A DNA stretch of 59,501 nt, filler included, from Sphacelaria rigidula (taxonomy: Eukaryota): NCBI GenBank assembly GCA_964200075.2. It is 7 parts of 7 records of this genome, joined end to end, with 100 filler letters (N's around TTAATTAATTAA, not from the genome) between each part and the next. Parts side by side here need not be neighbours in the genome. Positions count along the whole stretch, not along the records: positions 51,089 to 59,501 come from CAXNAA020011224.1; 6 more parts are not named here. The stretch is one strand, 5' to 3'. Both the position numbers and the translations under genes were made by a program. A model generated the notes under the pieces. The model was given only the letters and a program-made list of their open reading frames with translations. It had not been told where the DNA came from and did no database searches. Numbering within the stretch: position 1 is the first letter of the stretch; every line of letters starts with the position of its first letter. Of this stretch, positions 50,961 through 59,501 are shown piece after piece.

Positions 50961-52109
50961 CAGACACTTTCTACGATAGCCCCCCCCCNNNNNNNNNNNN
51001 NNNNNNNNNNNNNNNNNNNNNNNNNNNNNNNNTTAATTAATTAANNNNNNNNNNNNNNNNNNNNNNNNNNNNNNNNNNNNNNNNNNNNGAAAACGGTAAA
51101 AATGGCGTGTTTGGCTGTTTTCGCGTTTCTGGCCATTGCCCTTAGAAAAAGTCGGGAATCTGAGCCCGACCAATTCTCCTTCCTTTTGCTTCGAAGGCTT
51201 TTTTGTGGGCCAGGGACCGGGTACACCAACTTTGCAGTGACATCATCACTCCCAGCGACAGCCCCCCTCCACTGGTTGTTCGGATGTGGTCGATAAGTTT
51301 TGCCTCGCGGTGATTGGGCAGGTCGCTCCCGGACTTGTTGAGTTTTATTTTACTGATACATGGTGAACCCCTTGTTACTGAGCCTCATTCCCAAAGGGTT
51401 AATAAAGGGCCTCGGGGGAACATATTCTACTGGGGGTATAGAACAACCGGTTCAAACCTACTTTCTGAAAACATACAACACGTTGGGTGTACGCTGCAGG
51501 TTCACGTGAATGCGCATCATAGCAGACTGCACGAAAGCAAGGAATTTCTTAGCGCAAAACGCATACTGCTTGTAGTGTTGGCCCTCGCGCATCGAATAGG
51601 CCCCACTGGCGCACTGCTGCTGGACGACTAGGTCGGTGCAAGTGTGAACCGGCCCGCCGCGATGGAGAAACAATCATGAGCGGCAGCAAACACGTTTTAC
51701 ACATCGATATCCTGAGGACCGTCATCGGCCATGCCGGCGGAAAAAATGTGCTTGGGAAGGAATTGCTGATATGATCTGTGGGCGCTACCGGAATTGACTA
51801 GATCGTGCCCCTCGAGAAATCGTAGCTGCGAAAAGCATTATCGGGGGGTGTTATGCTACGTCATGTATGGTTCGGACACAGGCATGTTTAGTTGTGTGCC
51901 GGTGCTGTGTCGTCAGTTGATCGGCCTCAATTTTTCGGAAACCAACCTGAATTCCCCACTCTCTGGCAGTTTCAAGAAGCGACTCCTGAAATACATAAGT
52001 CCTCCCGGCGTTCCCGCCACGGTCTTTCAGAAAACCGAGATCAAAAGCTCATCAGCCGGGGGTGTTATACTCTGTAACTACTGTGTCTGCAGTACAACAT
52101 AAACAGCAC

Positions 52110-52304
52110 CTCGTAAAAGATGTCGACCGAGCATGTAGCGGGGCGCTCGTCTTTGTTAGGCACACCATGTTCCATTCCTCCTGGGTCTTGGGAATCATCG
52201 AGAGTCTGAGATATTACTCTGCTTCCATCATCAAACTCGATTTTCACGCTGGCAGCCATCTTCTCCGTGCATTGATTGTAGAACGGGTGGTGTTCACCAG
52301 GATT
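52110..52304 (-). CDS. Possible exon of an unidentified gene divergent from TOP6A
   Basis: TTACAG| acceptor and GAG|GTGCTG donor enclose 65 open codons (NPGEHHPFYNQCTEK...CSVDIFYE). No recognisable homology. Confidence 0.3.
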
Positions 52305-52716
52305 CTGTAATGTTTTTCGTTTGCTGTATATGTTTATATACATGACTTCAAGTCCCGTGTGTCTGAGAATACGATTGATCGATGGGAAACAAAGGTTACG
52401 ACAAAAGAGCTTTTTCGTCATAACCTTTGACGGGGCACAGTAATTTTCTGTGTAACAGGTAATCCATACCTCTTCTGCATCATTTCGCTGGTGATATTAT
52501 CGGCTTTTTAAATTACATACGTACAGAGTACTGTACAAAAATCACGCATCTATTTATATTTGTGAAAATCTTTTGATCTCGGGTCGGCACTACGGTTCTG
52601 AAGCGATATGTTGTAGAGGCTTGGGGGTTATTTCAAATGATTCAACTGTAGAGAGATCTGGGGGCGCGTACCGTCGATCGGCTTTGAGCCGGCTTTAGTG
52701 CTACCGCCACTCGATC

Positions 52717-52794
52717 ATGGCATCTCGGACTGCAAAACGAAGGTCTTCCGCTGGTGCTGACCCGATAGATCTAACGTCCAATTCCCCATCCAAG
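52717..52794 (+). CDS. TOP6A: Predicted exon 1 of DNA topoisomerase VI subunit A / SPO11-3 (MASRTAKRRSSAGADPIDLTSNSPSK)
   Basis: ATG at 52717 and a strong donor AAG|GTAAGC at 52794/52795. Phase 0 matches the acceptor at 53968-53969. Confidence 0.6.
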
Positions 52795-53969
52795 GTAAGC
52801 ACGACGTGTATCTGTAGACCCATACTCCAACCTCAAAGTCTCAAACACATCGAATGCAGCATGTACTGTAATACAACAGTACAGCCAATACAACATCGCA
52901 GCTACGAGAGCACAGCAATTTTTGAATTTCATGAACAGCAGCACACCCACGTCACAGTAGTAAGAGGGTAGACGTCGAATTGCATCCCATGTGGGGTACT
53001 GCGCGTGGTGTTAATTTGGCAATGCCAAAAGACTGCAAGAATGTGTGGGGTACGTAGATGTTGGCATCTCCAGCGAAATACCTTCCAACGATGTGATTGG
53101 TACTCTGTTCCCGCTGCGGCTCGACTGCGGCGCAACTTGTTTTTAAATTTGCGCCAAAAATAAAAGATGGTGGGCCATAGGTGGGCCATAGGTGAGCCAA
53201 GCTGCGCCTTTTGCAGAGAAACTAGTATTTTCAATGCTGGAACAGCGGTATTTTGCGCTGCGACGTGCACCGAGTCGCCCTGTTTGCTCTGCGGAGTAGG
53301 GTGTGCGCTGCCACCGTTGTCATGTGTGCTGATTGTCGTTTGAGGTCGCCATGCTGACTACTGTGTGTGCTGTCCCGCACTACTGCTACGGGTGCATGGT
53401 TGGCCCAGCTTACTCATTGTTCATCTCTGGAGCAGACTAGACCCAGAAAGGGTGCGCCTACATAGTCGACGTGAAAGGAATGAAATGCGGTGGTCTTAGG
53501 CGGACTACAGCGTCAGAAACAAATACACACGCGCGCGGAGCCTTGCACCACAGTTTTTAGGGGAGATAGCACCCCTGTTGATTTGTTTCAACTTCGATGT
53601 TTAACGACAAGAAAGGCGCTTGACGGCCGGAAGATTCCGTACGTAGATAGATTTCTTGGAGATCTCGCCGATGACACTGCTCTGGCGTCGATGTAGTACT
53701 ACAGGAATAACTCTAGAGAAAATGAGGCTGATTATTTTTTTGCCGGCGGCTGCCGAAGGTGCCATCAGGCGCAATCTACGGTACATGATTAAGTCGTGAG
53801 CACAAAACACGCTGCTTATCCACAATGTAACTGATATTTTACAGTACTGTAGGAACAGTCGCTCAAACCTATCTCATCTCGCTCACCCCAATTTTTTCAC
53901 CCGTCTTCCCTGCTGTGCATCTCCACCTCTTCTCCGCCACATATGTATGTCCTCGCAACAACACCTAAG

Positions 53970-56453
53970 GAAAAAGCCACATCTAATAAACGTTCCAACA
54001 TGGGGGCGGCGGCGTCAACCAGCGCATCCTCTCCTACCCGAGTCGGACGCCCGCGCGTCTACTCCTCTCCTAAAGCCAAATCTTCGGTAGGCGCCACCCA
54101 TGCCGGCAGCGATGATGATGACGATTTCGACTTCACTTTCGACGAGAGCGGTAGCGACGACACCTTCTCACCGGTCAAAACCTCCGGCTCGGGAAAAAAA
54201 AGAGGCACGAAAAAGAAGCTGACCAAAACCACCATCGACCCGGCCGCGAGAAAGAACAACAGCTCGGCGCAAAAATCATCATTGTTGTCGTCGCCATCGA
54301 GTGCGACAAAAAAGGGTGCAGGTAACGCCGCCGCCGCCGCCGCCTCAAAAATATCAGAAGCGGATCCCGCCACCAAGAAGGCTACCGTTAGCACTAGCAA
54401 CAGAGCAAGCACCGCCTCCGAGCAGGATAGAGGGTCAGGAGCTGATCCCCCGGGCCGCAGAGCGGCAACGAGTGGCGCCAACAATAAGCCTACAGCCACC
54501 GCCAGCGGCAACGGCGGCAGCGGCGCCGCTGTCGCTGATGGGGACCACGCTACTCCTTCGTCGGAAGTGAAAAACACGACTGTTGGTAGCAGCGGCAAGG
54601 TTACCGTTAACAGCGAAAACGGCGAGACTAATGAGACCCCGCAGGCAACGGAGAAATTGAGTAGCGCCACTGCAACCGCGAAACCCAGTTTAGCAGCGGA
54701 GACGACACCGCCAAAATCCCGCGCCCCTGCTGCTACTGCAATGTCGACCGGTACGGGCTCCGCCGTAAAAGCATCCGCTATTCGGACACCGCAGGGGAGT
54801 AGTGTTGGCGTCGGCCCCGCTTCGGCTTCGAAGCGAGCAAAAATGGCGCCGAAAATACCGGCCGAGCGCAAATTTCCGGCGGAGCCAAAGAGCACGCCAA
54901 GCAATGAGAAAGAGAAAGACGCGGACACCACCGGTGCTTCGGCGGAAACGGCCACAGCCGCCCGCACTGCTGCCTCTGTGGTTGTGATGGACGAAAGTGA
55001 CAACGGCGAGAGCAAAAGAGACGTTAAGACGAGTGGTAGCGGTAGTGGTTGCGACGACAAAGAGGGTTCAGCAGTGTCAAGCGCGAGAAAACGAAGTGAA
55101 ACTTCGGGGGCTTCAGCGGCAGAGGTAGAGGAGTCCTGGCGGGGGCGGCAACGGCCGTCGCGAGCGGTGGCGAAGAAGTCGTACGCGGAGGATTCGGATA
55201 CTGGTAGTGGTGCCTCTGAGAAAGATCGCATGGATGGTGAAAGCGACCGTGACGATGAAAGTGGCAGTGACACTGACAAAAGAACAGGCAAGAGTAGCAG
55301 TAAGGGCCGCAACACGGCAAAAGGCGGATCGAAAGCATTGGCTGCCAACGGGTCTGGCGGGAAGACAACAGCTGCTGCGGCTAGCTCTACTGCACGCCGA
55401 CAACGAGCGAACAAGAAGAAAGCGGTCGACGATATCGTCGACATCGACGACGAGGATGGCGGAGAAGAACCAGAGATGGGGACCCCGCAGAAGGGTAGAA
55501 AAGCAGCTGCCAGCGGCAAGGGAAAAGGTAAGGCGCGCGCAAACTTCAAGAAGCAGGATAATTACGATAGCGATAAAGACGGGAGTCCTCCCGTGAAGAA
55601 AAAACACGGATTTTCCCGTGCGTCGTCGGGCGTTAAAGGCGGCGGCAGCGCGGAGGACGCGTTAGCACTAGGAAGCGATGGCGACGACGACATGGGGGTC
55701 CTCGAAAATGATGAAGGTAAAGGCGATAGCGATGGAGAAGACTTGTCGCTTTCGGCGCTGGTAGAGAAAAAAAGAAGAGATGAGGGCGGCACGACCGGGT
55801 CTGCCGACGGGGTCGGCGGTAGCGGCGGCGGTGGCCACCGCCGCAACGGTAGCAGCAATACAGGGCGGAGGGGTGGCGGGGCGGTGGTGGGAAGATCAGC
55901 CAAGAAAAAGAAACAATCGCCAGTATTGTCGGAAGAGGAGTCGACGTCCGAACTAGATTATTTAGACGCCGACAGCGACAACGAGGACAACGATAGCGAG
56001 GACCATACAGGGGTCTCGGATAGTGAAGACAGTTACACCCCGACAGCAAAAAAGACAACGAGCAGAAAGAAGAAACAGGCGGCGTCGACGGCGTCGGCGG
56101 CGTCGAAACCGCGCACGTCTGCTAAGAAACGCCGGAAAGAAAGCGCAGGAGAAGGAGCGCGACGAACAGGGGCAGGAGAAACCGACGAGCCTTCTTCGTC
56201 CGGGTCGAGCCTCAGCGACAAAAGTAAAGGAAAACGAAAAGCTAGAGCGACCGACCGTGGAAGTGGTGCTCTTCCGTCGGCTAAACCTACCAAGCTTGCT
56301 GATGATGAAAAGGCCGTGTTGAAGAAGTTGCGGAGACTGAGGGATGGCATGGAGGGTGGGTCAAGTCGCTCCGGGGCGGCCGGCGGCGGAAGGGACGGAG
56401 CGGAGAGGGCTCTCACTCTGCACGAGCTTGGTCTCGGCAGTGATGTCACGGAG
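53970..56453 (+). CDS. TOP6A: Large exon 2 (828 codons) of TOP6A/SPO11-3: low-complexity S/A/K/D/G-rich disordered region ending in the start of the Top6A N-terminal region
   Basis: Lies in the 886-aa ORF 53943-56603. AG at 53968-53969 is the first AG after a pyrimidine-rich tract. Ends ...KAVLKKLRRL...ALTLHELGLGSDVTE with donor GAG|GTGGGT at 56453/56454, phase 0, in frame with the next exon. Confidence 0.8.
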
Positions 56454-56649
56454 GTGGGTTGGTACGGTACAAAATTGATGTCATGGTTGCCCGTGTTTTT
56501 CTGCATTGATCGGGTTGGTGACAAGGTTGTCGATCGCAGTTATCGCGTGTTTGTGTGTGGATCGTCGTGTCGCAGTGGTTGGTATGTGTATCGGATAGTA
56601 TAGTACCGTGTCGTCGTTGGTTAGCAGTTTTCTTCCGTGTTCCAAAAGC

Positions 56650-56890
56650 CCCCGGGGCTCACTAGTTGACCTCGATTCCTTCTAACGGTCGGGACGTGAT
56701 TTCGAATCTCGGTAAAGTCACGCTATCTGTTTTTTTTTTCATCACGTCATGCCCAGTAGTAGAGAGCGACTATGTCGTGGGTACACAAAATTCGACTTCA
56801 TGGTGGACGAGGGAATGAAACAGCTGAACCGGGATTTCGTGACTAGGAAGAGAGGTAAAGTGCGGCAAGGAAGGTGGAATGTCGTAAAAG
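56650..56890 (+). mobile_element. Degenerate SINE copy in TOP6A intron 2
   Basis: Shares the core GAGAGCGACTATGTCGTGGGTACACAAAATTCGAC. Confidence 0.7.
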
Positions 56891-57666
56891 TGCGAGTCTT
56901 CACACAGTGTGCGGTCGCTTCTGAAAATTATCTCTAACTTGTTTTTATCGCACGCCTGTGCGATACCTCCGATCCCTGTGCCGAAACCAAGTGGAATCAT
57001 CTACTCTACTTTTTTAACGCGCACGCCTGTGCGATAACTCCGACATGTTCGATCTGAACAAATCCCACCATGGGCGATACTCTTTTTAACCGCATTCCTG
57101 TGCGATAGCTCCGACACATGCGATACTGAATAAATCATACCGCTGGCGATACTGGTGTTTCATCTCACCCCTGTGTGATAGCTCCGATACGTGCGATACT
57201 GAATAGGTGTGTACCCCGGGGTCACACGAGACAGCACGACCTCACGCTCGAAAATCAGATATTCGTCGTGGTCATCGCACCCCTGTATGATGACTCCGAC
57301 CCCCTTTGCAAAAACTACATAAGACTATTCCTAGTTTGGATGCTCATCGCACAGTGCGACCAGTCCGACCGACCTGTGTGATCAGTCCGACCTGTGCGAT
57401 GACTCGCACTTTTACGGTACATAAGTAGCAAAGTATCTCCAGACCTGTAATGACGGGGCCAGCACAACGGTACACGGGAGTTGGCCCATAACACTGCTCG
57501 AGGCAGGCGTTCTCGCTGCGCTCGCCGATATTTTTGCCTGTATGCCGATGTTTTTGCCATATATGACGACATTGTTTTGCAACATATACCGACATATTCG
57601 CTCTTAATGTTTTCGTTTATTGCTACCGATTCATAACAACCCCAACAATCTTGAAATGCTGTATAG

Positions 57667-57834
57667 GTGAGGGAAATGGGAGCAGCAGGCGTGATGGACG
57701 AAATCGAACGCATAGCCGTGGAAGTAGCGCAGAGCATCATGGACGGGAAGGGGTTCAGCTTCAGAGTCCCTACGCGCAGCAGCGGCAACCAGAAGTATGT
57801 GGAGGAGCTCGACCGCATTGTTTTGGGAGACAAG
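57667..57834 (+). CDS. TOP6A: Exon 3 of TOP6A/SPO11-3; no further exon found before the scaffold ends
   Basis: TAG| acceptor and AAG|GTGCGG donor. Peptide VREMGAAGVMDEIERIAVEVAQSIMDGKGFSFRVPTRSSGNQKYVEELDRIVLGDK matches the plant/algal SPO11-3 signature G.GFSF.VP.R...NQ.YV.ELDRIVL.DK. Confidence 0.92.
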
Positions 57835-58249
57835 GTGCGGCAGTCACAAACGGTCATATTCCAGTCACATTAAGTGCGGAAGTCGTGGGACTCCCCGTGA
57901 CGGTAGAAACCGTCTAAGGTGGCCGATGATTTTCCTCGGGTTATGTAATCAAGGATTGACCGTAAGTCGTGGGGTTGAAGCAAGTGGATCACTCGGGAAA
58001 GCTCGACGAGCGCGAGCGAGGTAGCCCGGAGACGAAGTCTGGGAGTCTAAGAGAAAGAGTGATCCCCAGGGATAACCAGCAGTTCGCTTGGGAGATCCCT
58101 GTTACCTTGGGGTCCCAGATCCGTCTGTACAGATATGGGAATTTCGGGGCTCCTGGGAAAATAACCCTTATAACAGCCGTTCACTAGCTTGTGTGTGTGT
58201 ATTTTTTTTTTGTGTTGTCTCATTTATTCTGGGCGACAGTCTACACCTT

Positions 58250-58545
58250 TCGGTATATGTGGGCGCATCAGCCGGGGTCACACAAGAGGAATGTCAACAC
58301 AGGAGCTTTTACTATTATTTTTTTTCTAGTATCCCACCTTCCTTCTGCGGTGCTTGCTTTTATTTTTTGTCGCGAGAGCAGCCGTCCCTTTCCCTCGTCG
58401 ACCGTTAAGTCGAATTTTGTGTACCCACGACATAGTCGCTCTCCACTGTTGTGCATGGTGCAAGAAAAAATCCCAGATCGCTCCGGGGATCGAACCCCAC
58501 TACTCCACCGTCAGAAGGTCACGAGGTTACCAACTGAGCCACCAT
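58250..58545 (-). mobile_element. tRNA-derived SINE in a TOP6A intron
   Basis: Minus-strand head has A box TGGCTCAGTTGG and B box GGTTCGATCC, followed by the body GAGAGCGACTATGTCGTGGGTACACAAAATTCGAC. Copies at ~22005-22280 (+) and ~56650-56890 (+). Confidence 0.8.
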
Positions 58546-58658
58546 CATGAAAGGAAATCTCTCTGTACATGCCCAAATGGCAATCTCCACACAAGCGTTT
58601 TTTCGGGAGATACTTCGTGTTTTTGTCCGTCACGATTTTGGGCACCACAATATATATG

Positions 58659-58689
<31 letters not shown>

Positions 58690-59501
58690 TCTCCGGTGGC
58701 CTAGTCGTCCCACTGACACCATTTAGGGTGAAGAGAAGGTGGAGTCGATTCCTGCCAGATGCGTCAGGTTGTCTCTTCAAAGTGTCTGATTTCCACCGTC
58801 CAAAGTTTTTCCTTTTTTTCCCCTGTTCCTTCTTTTCTTCAGAGCGTGTTTCAGCTTCGTTTTTGTTGGATACGTCTATCATGAGACCACGGCTGGACCC
58901 CGGGGGGTTCAGTTAAAGTGCGACAATGAATGAATGAATCAATCAATCATCGAAGCGCGATGGTGTGAGAGGACAAAACGTCGTTGATTGAGTATGTGTG
59001 ACGAGAGTTGCCGCGGTATGGGAGGAGTGTTGACCCAATCCGCGAGACCAAAATGCAAGGTATGTACTGGGGGGGGAGGGAAATGGGTTGATCACCTGAG
59101 ACCACGGGCTCGTCCCGACGGGGGGGGAGCTTGAGCCTGTGACAATGAGTGCTGCCGCGATAGCCCCCCCAAAACAAAATCAAAAACAGCCAGAATACGC
59201 TCCGAACCAGCCCCAAACCTGTATTGAAAAAACATGGTAATACAGCGCATGATAGCTGGTTTCAGACTACTTAAAGTGCCTCATATTGGGGACGTTGTCG
59301 ACAACGATCCCACGGGTGGGAGTCCCCTACTGCTCGGCGTGATCCGCTCTTGTCATTTTTTATTTACATGTAGATTTTGCCTCCTCAAACCGACCACTTT
59401 TCTGTGTGTGTGTGGGGGGGGGGGGGGGTTACTACTTTTTTGCTTTCTTTTTTCTTTTGCCCATTGCTATAGCTTCCCTTCTGTTATGGGGGGGGGGGGG
59501 G

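What the first reader, a model, noticed from the sequence alone, without database searches (positions are those of the whole stretch)
52717..57834. TOP6A/SPO11-3 with a ~800-aa intrinsically disordered N-terminal extension in one giant exon
Seen: three phase-0 exons join into ~800 residues of S/A/K/D/G-rich low-complexity sequence, followed by the recognisable Top6A N-terminus (LTLHELGL...GKGFSFRVPTR...ELDRIVLGDK). Established: plant SPO11-3 and archaeal Top6A are compact (~350-430 aa), and plant Topo VI relies on separate accessory subunits (RHL1, BIN4). Inference: this lineage may have fused a chromatin-targeting or condensate-forming disordered module onto the catalytic subunit. The 2.5-kb exon is also far larger than the other exons seen here (21-176 nt).
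Basis: partly seen in the sequence, partly recalled or inferred. Interest (0 to 1): 0.7.

Follow-up and report, generated by a model that had tools for sequence, protein, structure and literature searches.

The report
Topoisomerase VI-A with long disordered tail
This is the start of a brown-alga-type topoisomerase VI subunit A gene whose transcript really does encode about 850 floppy, low-complexity residues ahead of the enzyme; shorter versions of the tail sit unremarked in gene models of other brown algae.

Summary
Exons 52717-52794, 53970-56453 and 57667-57834 (+) join in phase 0 into 910 stop-free codons. Assembled contigs of three RNA-like runs carry exactly these two GT..AG joints in one contig of about 4.1 kb. 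The DNA run is colinear with the genome.

Exon 3 is 82-91% identical to brown-algal DNA topoisomerase VI subunit A models. A full-length orthologue matches archaeal Top6A far better than yeast Spo11 (4e-52 against 2e-14).

The 854 residues before exon 3 are S/A/G/K/D/T-rich and 10% hydrophobic, with no Pfam family. They are predicted disordered except for one conserved helix.

The tail is not unique to this genome. Ectocarpus sp. 6 (808 aa) and Undaria (868 aa) models carry homologous tails of 453 and 513 residues with the same ordered short motifs. The one diatom model read, a Thalassiosira protein, has the end motifs about 35 residues apart. So it is an expanded linker, not a fused foreign module.

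Ectocarpus keeps BIN4 and RHL1 (PMC9665070), which argues against replacement of those partners. The function is inferred: nuclear, DNA or chromatin tethering and regulation.

This scan earlier noted N-terminal arms on Asgard Top6A in other DNA, not this algal tail. Interest is moderate.

The parts
52299..52645 (.). Short divergent intergenic region, the presumed shared promoter. It lies between a minus-strand neighbour transcript and the TOP6A transcript.
   Evidence: the neighbour's contigs (2730 and 2230 nt) end at 52269 (X1, X8) and 52298 (X3). The TOP6A contig of X3 begins at 52646.
52646..52716 (+). 5' UTR, minimum extent.
   Evidence: X3 contig 9 reaches 52646; no ATG in this stretch, and an in-frame TAG at 52696-52698.
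52717..52794 (+). Coding exon 1, 26 codons: start codon, a basic cluster and an I-D-L-T motif.
   Evidence: It aligns with the N-terminus of the Ectocarpus sp. 6 model P0177.
52795..53969 (+). Intron 1, 1175 nt, GT..AG.
   Evidence: table 5: skipped in X1, X3 and X8, present in DNA run X5. RNA-like depth is zero in four of its bins (52835-53635); one low-depth 219-nt piece (53655-53873) lies inside the intron in X1 and X8.
53970..56453 (+). Coding exon 2, 828 codons: the low-complexity, predicted disordered tail.
   Evidence: No Pfam family.
54114..54161 (+). Acidic-aromatic short motif (D-rich with F-x-F-x-F, then S/D), at spliced residues 75-90.
   Evidence: BLASTP match to Undaria P0170 residues 88-103, E 0.014 for the pair; it aligns with a like motif in Ectocarpus sp. 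6.
56268..56453 (+). Conserved end of exon 2: the helix (exon-2 residues 776-795, nt 56295-56354), a G-rich linker, and the T-L-x-E-L-G-L..D-V-T-E segment.
   Evidence: Searches give 44-48% identity for this piece alone and 62-69% with exon 3 included; helix 776-795, pLDDT about 81; the equivalent helix 401-425 in orthologue P0177 has block-mean pLDDT of about 75 and 91, falling to 55 at its last residues.
56454..57666 (+). Intron 2, 1213 nt, GT..AG. It holds a high-copy repeat near its 5' end and a 73-nt tandem repeat.
   Evidence: tables 2 and 5; 57007-57205, period 73, 2.8 copies.
57667..57834 (+). Coding exon 3, 56 codons: start of the folded Top6A, comprising the helix that precedes the 5Y-CAP domain and the first strands.
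   Evidence: 82-91% identity to brown-algal Top6A models; equivalent residues 459-509 of P0177 have block-mean pLDDT of 90-97.
57835..59501 (+). Intron 3, incomplete. The rest of the gene lies beyond the window's end.
   Evidence: the RNA-like contigs have a further 1362-1366 nt that do not lie on 57838-59501.

Best explanation
**Shown.**
- This is the 5' part of the orthologue of DNA topoisomerase VI subunit A (TOPOVIA / SPO11-3 type) in a brown alga or close relative.
- Its mRNA joins a 26-codon first exon, a 828-codon exon and a 56-codon exon. The enzyme is therefore preceded by 854 residues.
- About the first 790 of these residues form a low-complexity, predicted disordered polyampholyte.
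- The last roughly 60 residues hold a conserved helix and a linker.
- The tail is a lineage-wide brown-algal feature that has grown here to nearly twice the length modelled in Ectocarpus and Undaria. Growth occurred between a conserved N-terminal basic motif and the conserved helix.

**Inferred.**
- The conserved helix and linker belong to the eukaryotic TopoVIA fold.
- The tail is a flexible arm that is dispensable for catalysis.
- Its nine basic clusters give nuclear import and non-specific DNA or chromatin tethering.
- Its acidic serine clusters and 14 S/T-P sites make that tethering switchable by phosphorylation.
- Its few conserved short motifs dock partners.
- It would thus work like the disordered charged tails of eukaryotic topoisomerases I and II (recalled knowledge) and like the structured HhH arms on some Asgard Top6A.
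For: **Transcript.** One contig per RNA-like run carries both GT..AG joints and runs on for a further 1362-1366 nt. The DNA run has no such joint.

**Frame and start codon.**

**Identity.**
- Exon 3 is 82-91% identical to brown-algal Top6A models.
- Orthologue P0177 has TP6A_N and Toprim domains.
- P0177 hits archaeal Top6A at 4e-52 against yeast Spo11 at 2.3e-14.

**Disorder.**
- Composition is S 15%, A 14%, G 12%, K 10%, with 10% hydrophobic residues.
- No Pfam family is found.
- The AF2 mean pLDDT is 43.9, and helix 776-795 is the only secondary-structure element.
- In P0177, with a 35-sequence alignment, the ten-residue block means are 34-51 and there is no secondary structure over residues 1-400 (383 residues under pLDDT 50 in the whole model). 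The enzyme core is mostly above pLDDT 90, and the helix block means are about 75 and 91.

**Homology of the tail.** Ordered motif islands are shared with Ectocarpus sp. 6 and Undaria. The Thalassiosira model P0016 has the N-terminal basic motif and the helix about 35 residues apart.

**Charge pattern.** There are nine basic clusters, and 40-residue blocks reach net -15, +12 and +9 in the last third.

**Precedent.** Asgard Top6A P0035 has seven HHH_5 stretches ahead of the enzyme.
Against: - No functional data of any kind exist for the tail.
- Most of the tail is unalignable between species. The open frame must be kept anyway, because the enzyme lies downstream, so an intact frame does not prove that the tail has a function.
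- Contigs cannot show transcript starts or minor isoforms.
- The runs are only guessed to be RNA by the tool. My call that they are cDNA rests on the missing introns.
- The AF2 run on the window's own exon used only 5 sequences.
- The catalytic exons lie outside the window and were not seen.
Confidence: 0.55

Rival explanations
1. The tail is mostly neutral low-complexity growth. Only the terminal basic motif, a few short motifs and the helix matter, and the rest is tolerated spacer with no role in targeting or regulation.
For: - Outside about five short islands, nothing aligns between the window, Ectocarpus and Undaria.
- Length varies from 453 to 513 to 854 residues.
- The Thalassiosira model has only about 35 residues between the basic motif and the helix.
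- The frame is protected merely by the essential enzyme downstream.
Against: - Composition is kept across the three tails: S/A/G/K-rich with 9-10% hydrophobic residues.
- No recent tandem or slippage repeats explain the length.
- The charge blocks and basic clusters are dense.
Confidence: 0.3
2. The long form is a minor product. The working protein starts at an internal methionine or from an internal promoter near the end of exon 2 or in exon 3, as the 352-400 aa gene models of other brown algae imply.
For: Several public models start there: P0011 at 352 aa, P0005 at 393 aa and P0169 at 400 aa. Contigs drop rare variants and cannot show starts.
Against: - The only assembled form in the RNA-like runs contains all of exons 1-3.
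- The first ATG follows an in-frame stop, with no upstream ATG.
- The N-terminus of exon 1 is conserved with the Ectocarpus sp. 6 model, and the basic motif with the Thalassiosira model.
- A start in exon 3 would delete the conserved helix.
Confidence: 0.1
3. One reading: the tail is an acquired chromatin-targeting or condensate module that takes over the job done in plants by the separate subunits RHL1 and BIN4.
For: The tail has a blocky charge pattern and high predicted disorder. Structured DNA-binding arms have been added to Top6A in Asgard archaea.
Against: - Passages of PMC9665070 report BIN4 and RHL1 orthologues in Ectocarpus siliculosus that bind each other in yeast two-hybrid assays, and a predicted interface on TopoVIB.
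- Ectocarpus also has the tail.
- The end motifs pre-date the expansion.
- No family or look-alike was found for the tail.
Confidence: 0.05

Closest known systems
Brown-algal TOPOVIA gene models: Ectocarpus sp. 6 CAN0171414.1 (P0177, 808 aa), Undaria pinnatifida model (P0170, 868 aa), Ectocarpus siliculosus CBJ26510.1 (P0007, 639 aa), Ascophyllum nodosum CAM9150412.1 (P0013, 563 aa)
   Same: - The helix-to-exon-3 region is 62-69% identical.
- The exon 2/3 junction residue pattern is the same.
- The motif islands occur in the same order in the tail.
- The tail composition is the same.
   Different: - The tail here is 854 residues, against 453 and 513.
- The 639-aa model starts at a methionine that is internal to the 808-aa model.
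- Most of the tail is unalignable.
- Over 112-115 conserved columns the window is about 70-72% identical to each species. Those species are 75-82% identical to one another.
Canonical Top6A: archaeal chains 2zbk_A (389 aa), 2q2e_A (369 aa), 1d3y_A; plant SPO11-3 (the plant length is recalled, not from a call)
   Same: The orthologue has the same catalytic architecture, TP6A_N plus Toprim, and matches at E 4e-52 to 2e-37.
   Different: These proteins are compact. Among 63 relatives whose match starts in the first 30 query residues, the median N-terminal offset is 65 and only 4 reach 200 or more. Here the offset is 857.
Asgard (Loki-/Thorarchaeota) Top6A with N-terminal helix-hairpin-helix arms (P0035 950 aa, P0034 746 aa)
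   Same: A long N-terminal appendage of about 400-600 residues lies ahead of Top6A and is plausibly a DNA tether.
   Different: Those arms are made of folded HHH_5 repeats. Here there is no fold and no family. The origin is independent.
Disordered charged N-terminal domain of eukaryotic topoisomerase I and C-terminal domain of topoisomerase II (recalled knowledge, not tested here)
   Same: They are long, charged, poorly conserved tails on a topoisomerase. They carry nuclear localisation signals and phosphorylation sites and are dispensable for catalysis in vitro.
   Different: The enzyme families are unrelated and there is no sequence similarity. The parallel is one of working principle only.

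Membership tests
DNA topoisomerase VI subunit A (TOPOVIA / SPO11-3 type) | N-terminal segment homologous to accepted TopoVIA proteins | tested here: met
   Exon 3 is 82-91% identical over 95-100% of its length to 12 brown-algal proteins, including 'DNA topoisomerase VI subunit A [Ectocarpus siliculosus]'. The spliced protein's residues 789-910 (start 789-794 by pair) match four models at E 1e-38 to 1e-41.
DNA topoisomerase VI subunit A (TOPOVIA / SPO11-3 type) | 5Y-CAP domain with catalytic tyrosine (Pfam TP6A_N) | not testable with these tools
   These exons lie beyond the window's 3' end and no genome is held. Orthologues P0177 and P0170 have TP6A_N at 4e-22 and 1e-21. The RNA-like contigs continue for a further 1362-1366 nt, enough for about 300 codons, but their letters were not available.
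DNA topoisomerase VI subunit A (TOPOVIA / SPO11-3 type) | Toprim domain (Pfam TOP6A-Spo11_Toprim) | not testable with these tools
   This domain is outside the window. It is present in orthologues P0177 and P0170 at 2e-67.
DNA topoisomerase VI subunit A (TOPOVIA / SPO11-3 type) | Closer to archaeal Top6A than to meiotic Spo11 | tested here: met
   This was tested on orthologue P0177. It matches 2zbk_A at 4e-52, 1d3y_A at 2e-44 and 2q2e_A at 2e-37, against yeast Spo11 8urq_A at 2.3e-14. No tree was built.
DNA topoisomerase VI subunit A (TOPOVIA / SPO11-3 type) | Partner subunits (TopoVIB, BIN4, RHL1) encoded in the same genome | not testable with these tools
   No genome is held for this window. 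They are reported for Ectocarpus siliculosus in passages of PMC9665070.
Intrinsically disordered, low-complexity region | Low hydrophobic content, no recognisable domain, no predicted stable structure | tested here: met
   Hydrophobic residues make up 10% and no Pfam family is found. In the model, 729 of 828 residues have pLDDT under 50 and there is one helix only. The equivalent tail of P0177 has ten-residue block-mean pLDDT of 34-51 and no secondary structure over residues 1-400. pLDDT is a proxy for disorder, not a measurement.

The most novel reading that the evidence does not exclude
Brown algae have turned the N-terminus of TopoVIA into a long, phospho-switchable chromatin or DNA tether with conserved docking motifs: a basic tip, an acidic F-x-F-x-F patch and V-V-D-I-D-type acidic-hydrophobic patches. 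This tether would couple the decatenase to replication or endocycle machinery or to condensates. The organism in this window would carry the largest TopoVIA known, about 1200 residues. It would be a eukaryotic, disordered counterpart of the HhH arms on Asgard Top6A.
Probability: 0.2. Interest if true: 0.6.

Novelty: new variant of a known kind. Interest (0 to 1): 0.4.

Why it matters
Topoisomerase VI is the enzyme from which the meiotic DNA-breaking protein Spo11 derives, and in plants it is needed for endoreduplication. How the eukaryotic enzyme is brought to chromatin and regulated is largely open.

A lineage in which the catalytic subunit carries a tail of 450-850 residues with a few conserved short motifs offers a natural handle for finding its partners and regulation.

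There is also a practical point. Public brown-algal models of this gene range from 352 to 868 residues. At least the 639-aa Ectocarpus siliculosus model begins at a methionine internal to the longer Ectocarpus model. Many annotations are therefore probably truncated at the 5' end.

The matter is of moderate, specialist interest. Long disordered tails on nuclear enzymes are common in eukaryotes.

Tried and rejected
- **Pfam on exon 2 and exon 3 alone.** It gave no family; there was only a sub-threshold THUMP match.
- **PDB sequence search with exon 3.** It gave only chance-level hits, E 0.23 and above.
- **Word-indexed homology search with the whole of exon 2 (455-1449 aa).** None of the 8000 candidates scored reached E 1e-3. 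Low-complexity words crowd the candidate list, so this is no evidence of absence.
- **ESM Atlas look-alikes of exon 2.** There was no usable hit.
- **Whole-genome search for RHL1, BIN4 and TopoVIB.** This was impossible because no genome is held.
- **Sequencing runs.** No RNA holder is listed on record. The RNA-like nature of X1, X3 and X8 is the tool's guess plus my reading of the missing introns.
- **Tandem or dispersed DNA repeats inside exon 2, as a source of the length.** I found only two short arrays (15 nt x 2.2, 9 nt x 3) and chance-level 18-23 nt families.
- **tRNA genes and Rfam families in 56400-59501.** None were found, although parts of it look tRNA-like by eye.
- **Bacterial-type promoter scan of the intergenic region.** It is uninformative for a eukaryote.
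- **Codon-position GC.** There is no strong third-position signal (0.51-0.70), so it neither helps nor hurts the coding call.
- **Supplements of PMC9665070.** These may show the Ectocarpus TOPOVIA construct and its length, but they could not be read.
- **Literature.**
  - 'topoisomerase VI' + 'brown alga': 8 papers hold both terms and 7 were listed. I read passages of two.
  - 'topoisomerase VI' + 'intrinsically disordered' + 'N-terminal': 24 papers, 12 listed, seen as a listing only.
  - 'TopoVIA' + 'Phaeophyceae': 0 papers.
  - None of what I saw describes this tail.
- **Considered and dropped.** A PCNA-docking box at the tip, as earlier scan notes proposed for Asgard arms. I saw no Q-x-x-[LIVM]-x-x-[FY][FY] pattern among the 13 aromatic residues listed. 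This was by eye only.


Full report
**What is in the sequence.** The + strand holds a stop-free frame of 916 codons at 53853-56603. In 1000 shuffles of that stretch the longest open frame was 291 codons. They have GT donors and AG acceptors and join into 910 codons without a stop. The ATG at 52717 is preceded by an in-frame TAG at 52696-52698. The 71 nt of known 5' UTR contain no ATG. Exonic G+C runs at about 0.56-0.61 over exon 2, against 0.48-0.49 in the two introns. Third-position G+C is unremarkable.

**Transcript evidence.** No run is on record as RNA. However, runs X1-X4 and X8 held about 0.53-0.55 of the sampled words of a stretch in which the exons make up about half. I laid X1, X3, X8 and the full holder X5 on 51500-59501. 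That is 4 of the 8 runs listed.
- X1, X3 and X8 each have a single contig (4099, 4166 and 4099 nt) that covers 52717 (52646 in X3) to 52791, then 53967-56451, then 57665-57837.
- Both skipped parts are GT..AG once the tool's stated cut shifts (+3, +2) are applied.
- The contigs then continue for a further 1362-1366 nt that do not lie in the window.
- Six of the intron bins (52835-53635 and 56840-57640) have zero depth in these three runs. One low-depth 219-nt piece (53655-53873) lies in intron 1 in X1 and X8.
- X5 has even depth and a contig colinear with the genome from 51500 to 56787, with no such joint.
Independent support is therefore two samples of one study.

I read these runs as cDNA because of the missing introns; the tool only guesses. 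Contigs cannot show transcript starts, levels or rare isoforms. A neighbour transcript on the minus strand ends at 52269/52298. The two genes therefore diverge from an intergenic stretch of about 350 bp, which fits a transcription start close to 52646.

**Identity.**
- Pfam and PDB searches with the window's own exons found nothing.
- A database search with exon 3 found 13 proteins at E 0.01 or better among 50 candidates. Twelve are 82-91% identical. They include 'DNA topoisomerase VI subunit A [Ectocarpus siliculosus]' (639 aa) and models from Ascophyllum, Ectocarpus fasciculatus and Ectocarpus sp. 12.
- Full-length orthologues carry TP6A_N and the Top6A/Spo11 Toprim domain in their last 290 or so residues and nothing else.
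- The Ectocarpus sp. 6 orthologue matches archaeal Top6A chains at 4e-52 to 2e-37 and yeast Spo11 at 2.3e-14. The family is therefore the TopoVIA type, not the meiotic Spo11 type.
- The catalytic exons of this gene lie beyond the window and no genome is held. Those defining features could not be tested on this organism.

**The tail.** The 854 residues ahead of exon 3 have the following properties.
- Composition is S 15.3, A 13.9, G 11.8, K 10.2, D 8.3, T 8.1, R 6.7 and E 6.1%, with 10.4% hydrophobic or aromatic residues.
- There are nine basic clusters, 14 S/T-P sites and 28 S/T-x-x-D/E sites.
- The last third is strongly charge-blocked, with 40-residue blocks of net +9, -15 and +12.
- AlphaFold2 on exon 2 with a five-sequence alignment gave mean pLDDT 43.9. 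In that model 729 of 828 residues are under 50, and the single secondary-structure element is helix 776-795, at pLDDT about 81.
- In the Ectocarpus sp. 6 orthologue, with 35 aligned sequences, the ten-residue block means are 34-51 and there is no secondary structure over residues 1-400. The equivalent helix 401-425 has block means of about 75 and 91, and the enzyme core is mostly above pLDDT 90.
- Exon 2 is not built from recent DNA repeats.

**Is it unique?** It is not.
- The clusters behind the first hits contain longer models: Ectocarpus sp. 6 (808 aa) and Undaria pinnatifida (868 aa). Their tails are 453 and 513 residues with the same composition.
- The 639-aa E. siliculosus model begins at a methionine internal to the 808-aa model.
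- BLASTP of the spliced window protein finds strong similarity only from about residue 790 onward: 62-69% identity, E 1e-38 to 1e-41. It also finds the acidic F-x-F-x-F motif in Undaria at E 0.014 for the pair.
- An E-INS-i alignment places further islands in the same order: the very N-terminus (M-A..R..K-R, then [IL]-D-[LV]-T), R-x-Y-S-S-P, the acidic-aromatic patch, and a V-V-x-[MI]-D-[ES]-[SE]-D-N-G patch. Everything between them is unalignable. These islands are short, so their homology is likely but not proven.
- In the Thalassiosira model (P0016, 494 aa) a like N-terminal basic motif and the K-L-A-D-D..V-L..L-R helix lie about 35 residues apart. I therefore read the brown-algal tail as growth of a linker between two older elements, not as a fused foreign module.
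- Over 112-115 conserved columns the window is 70-72% identical to Ectocarpus, Undaria and Ascophyllum. Those three are 75-82% identical to each other. This is a weak hint that the organism branches outside them, which would make the tail old within brown algae.

**How unusual is the length?** A full HMMER scan with the 352-aa core found 5282 relatives at E 1e-3 or better.
- Of the best 150, 63 have a match starting in the first 30 query residues. Their N-terminal offsets have median 65 and maximum 599. The window's offset is 857.
- Only four reach 200 or more:
  - two Asgard archaeal proteins with arrays of helix-hairpin-helix domains (P0035, with seven HHH_5 stretches; P0034);
  - Capsaspora SPO11, with an acidic tail (offset 306);
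  - an unnamed S/A/P-rich relative (offset 231).
- The library collapses relatives at 50% identity, so the brown-algal long models do not appear in it as such.

**Literature.** I read passages of PMC9665070 (Mol Biol Evol 2022).
- The paper reports that TopoVIA, TopoVIB, BIN4 and RHL1 co-occur.
- E. siliculosus BIN4 and RHL1 interact in yeast two-hybrid assays.
- Eukaryal and Asgard TopoVIA have an extra N-terminal helix, of unknown function, that is modelled against the Toprim domain.
- The conserved helix at the end of exon 2 is probably that helix. This is inference from position; contacts were not available.
- In the passages shown I found no mention of a long brown-algal tail. Its supplements could not be read.
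- PMC11835965 (passages) states that endoreduplication occurs in brown algae and that its control is little studied.
- Three searches turned up no description of the tail.

**Mechanism.**
- Shown: a transcribed, in-frame, predicted disordered, charge-blocked tail with a few conserved islands, attached through a conserved helix to TopoVIA.
- Inferred: the basic clusters give nuclear import and non-specific DNA or chromatin affinity. The acidic serine clusters and S/T-P sites allow phospho-control. The conserved islands dock partners. The arm raises the local concentration of the enzyme on chromatin without taking part in catalysis.
- The parallel with the disordered tails of eukaryotic topoisomerases I and II is recalled, not tested.
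- The main rival is that most of the length is neutral spacer. A minor-isoform rival cannot be excluded with contigs.
- The idea that the tail replaces RHL1 and BIN4 is disfavoured, because Ectocarpus has both the tail and those proteins.

**Earlier notes of this scan** describe N-terminal HhH 'tethering arms' on Thorarchaeota Top6A in other genomes. I met the same kind of protein independently (P0034, P0035) and confirmed only the HhH repeats. They serve as an analogy, not as support.

**Verdict.** This is a known enzyme with an undescribed, lineage-wide and here exceptionally long disordered tail. Its function is open. Interest is moderate.

Noticed in passing
window 56573-56839 and 57908-59242: There are very high-copy repeats in introns 2 and 3. 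Summed contig depth reaches about 63,000 and 950,000 in DNA run X5, against about 25 for unique sequence, and the repeats are also abundant in the RNA-like runs. Parts look tRNA-like by eye (for example around 58470-58545 on the minus strand), but ARAGORN and Rfam find nothing. This may be a SINE-like family.
   Followed up: partly
window 57007-57205: A 73-nt tandem repeat, 2.8 copies at 79% match, lies inside intron 2.
   Followed up: no
window 52110-52298 (minus strand): This is the first exon of a neighbouring gene transcribed away from TOP6A. RNA-like contigs of 2730 and 2230 nt end here. The two genes share an intergenic stretch of about 350 bp. The neighbour was not identified.
   Followed up: no
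proteins P0035 (950 aa) and P0034 (746 aa), not in the window: These are Top6A proteins with about 400-600 N-terminal residues made of helix-hairpin-helix repeats; P0035 has seven HHH_5 stretches. Members of the P0035 cluster are named Lokiarchaeota and Thorarchaeota; the P0034 cluster carries no name. It is the same kind of protein that earlier notes of this scan describe.
   Followed up: partly
proteins P0007, P0011, P0005, P0169, P0013 (public brown-algal models): Public models of this one gene range from 352 to 868 aa. At least the 639-aa Ectocarpus siliculosus model starts at a methionine internal to the 808-aa Ectocarpus sp. 6 model. The shorter ones are probably 5'-truncated annotations.
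   Followed up: partly
window 54059-55561 (minus strand): A 500-codon open frame lies antisense to exon 2. I take it as a by-product of the purine-rich, stop-poor codon make-up of the sense strand. The RNA-like contigs give no strand information.
   Followed up: no
window 53655-53873: A low-depth (3.6) 219-nt contig inside intron 1 appears in X1 and X8. It is probably unspliced precursor or trace DNA. An alternative upstream piece of exon 2 is not excluded.
   Followed up: no
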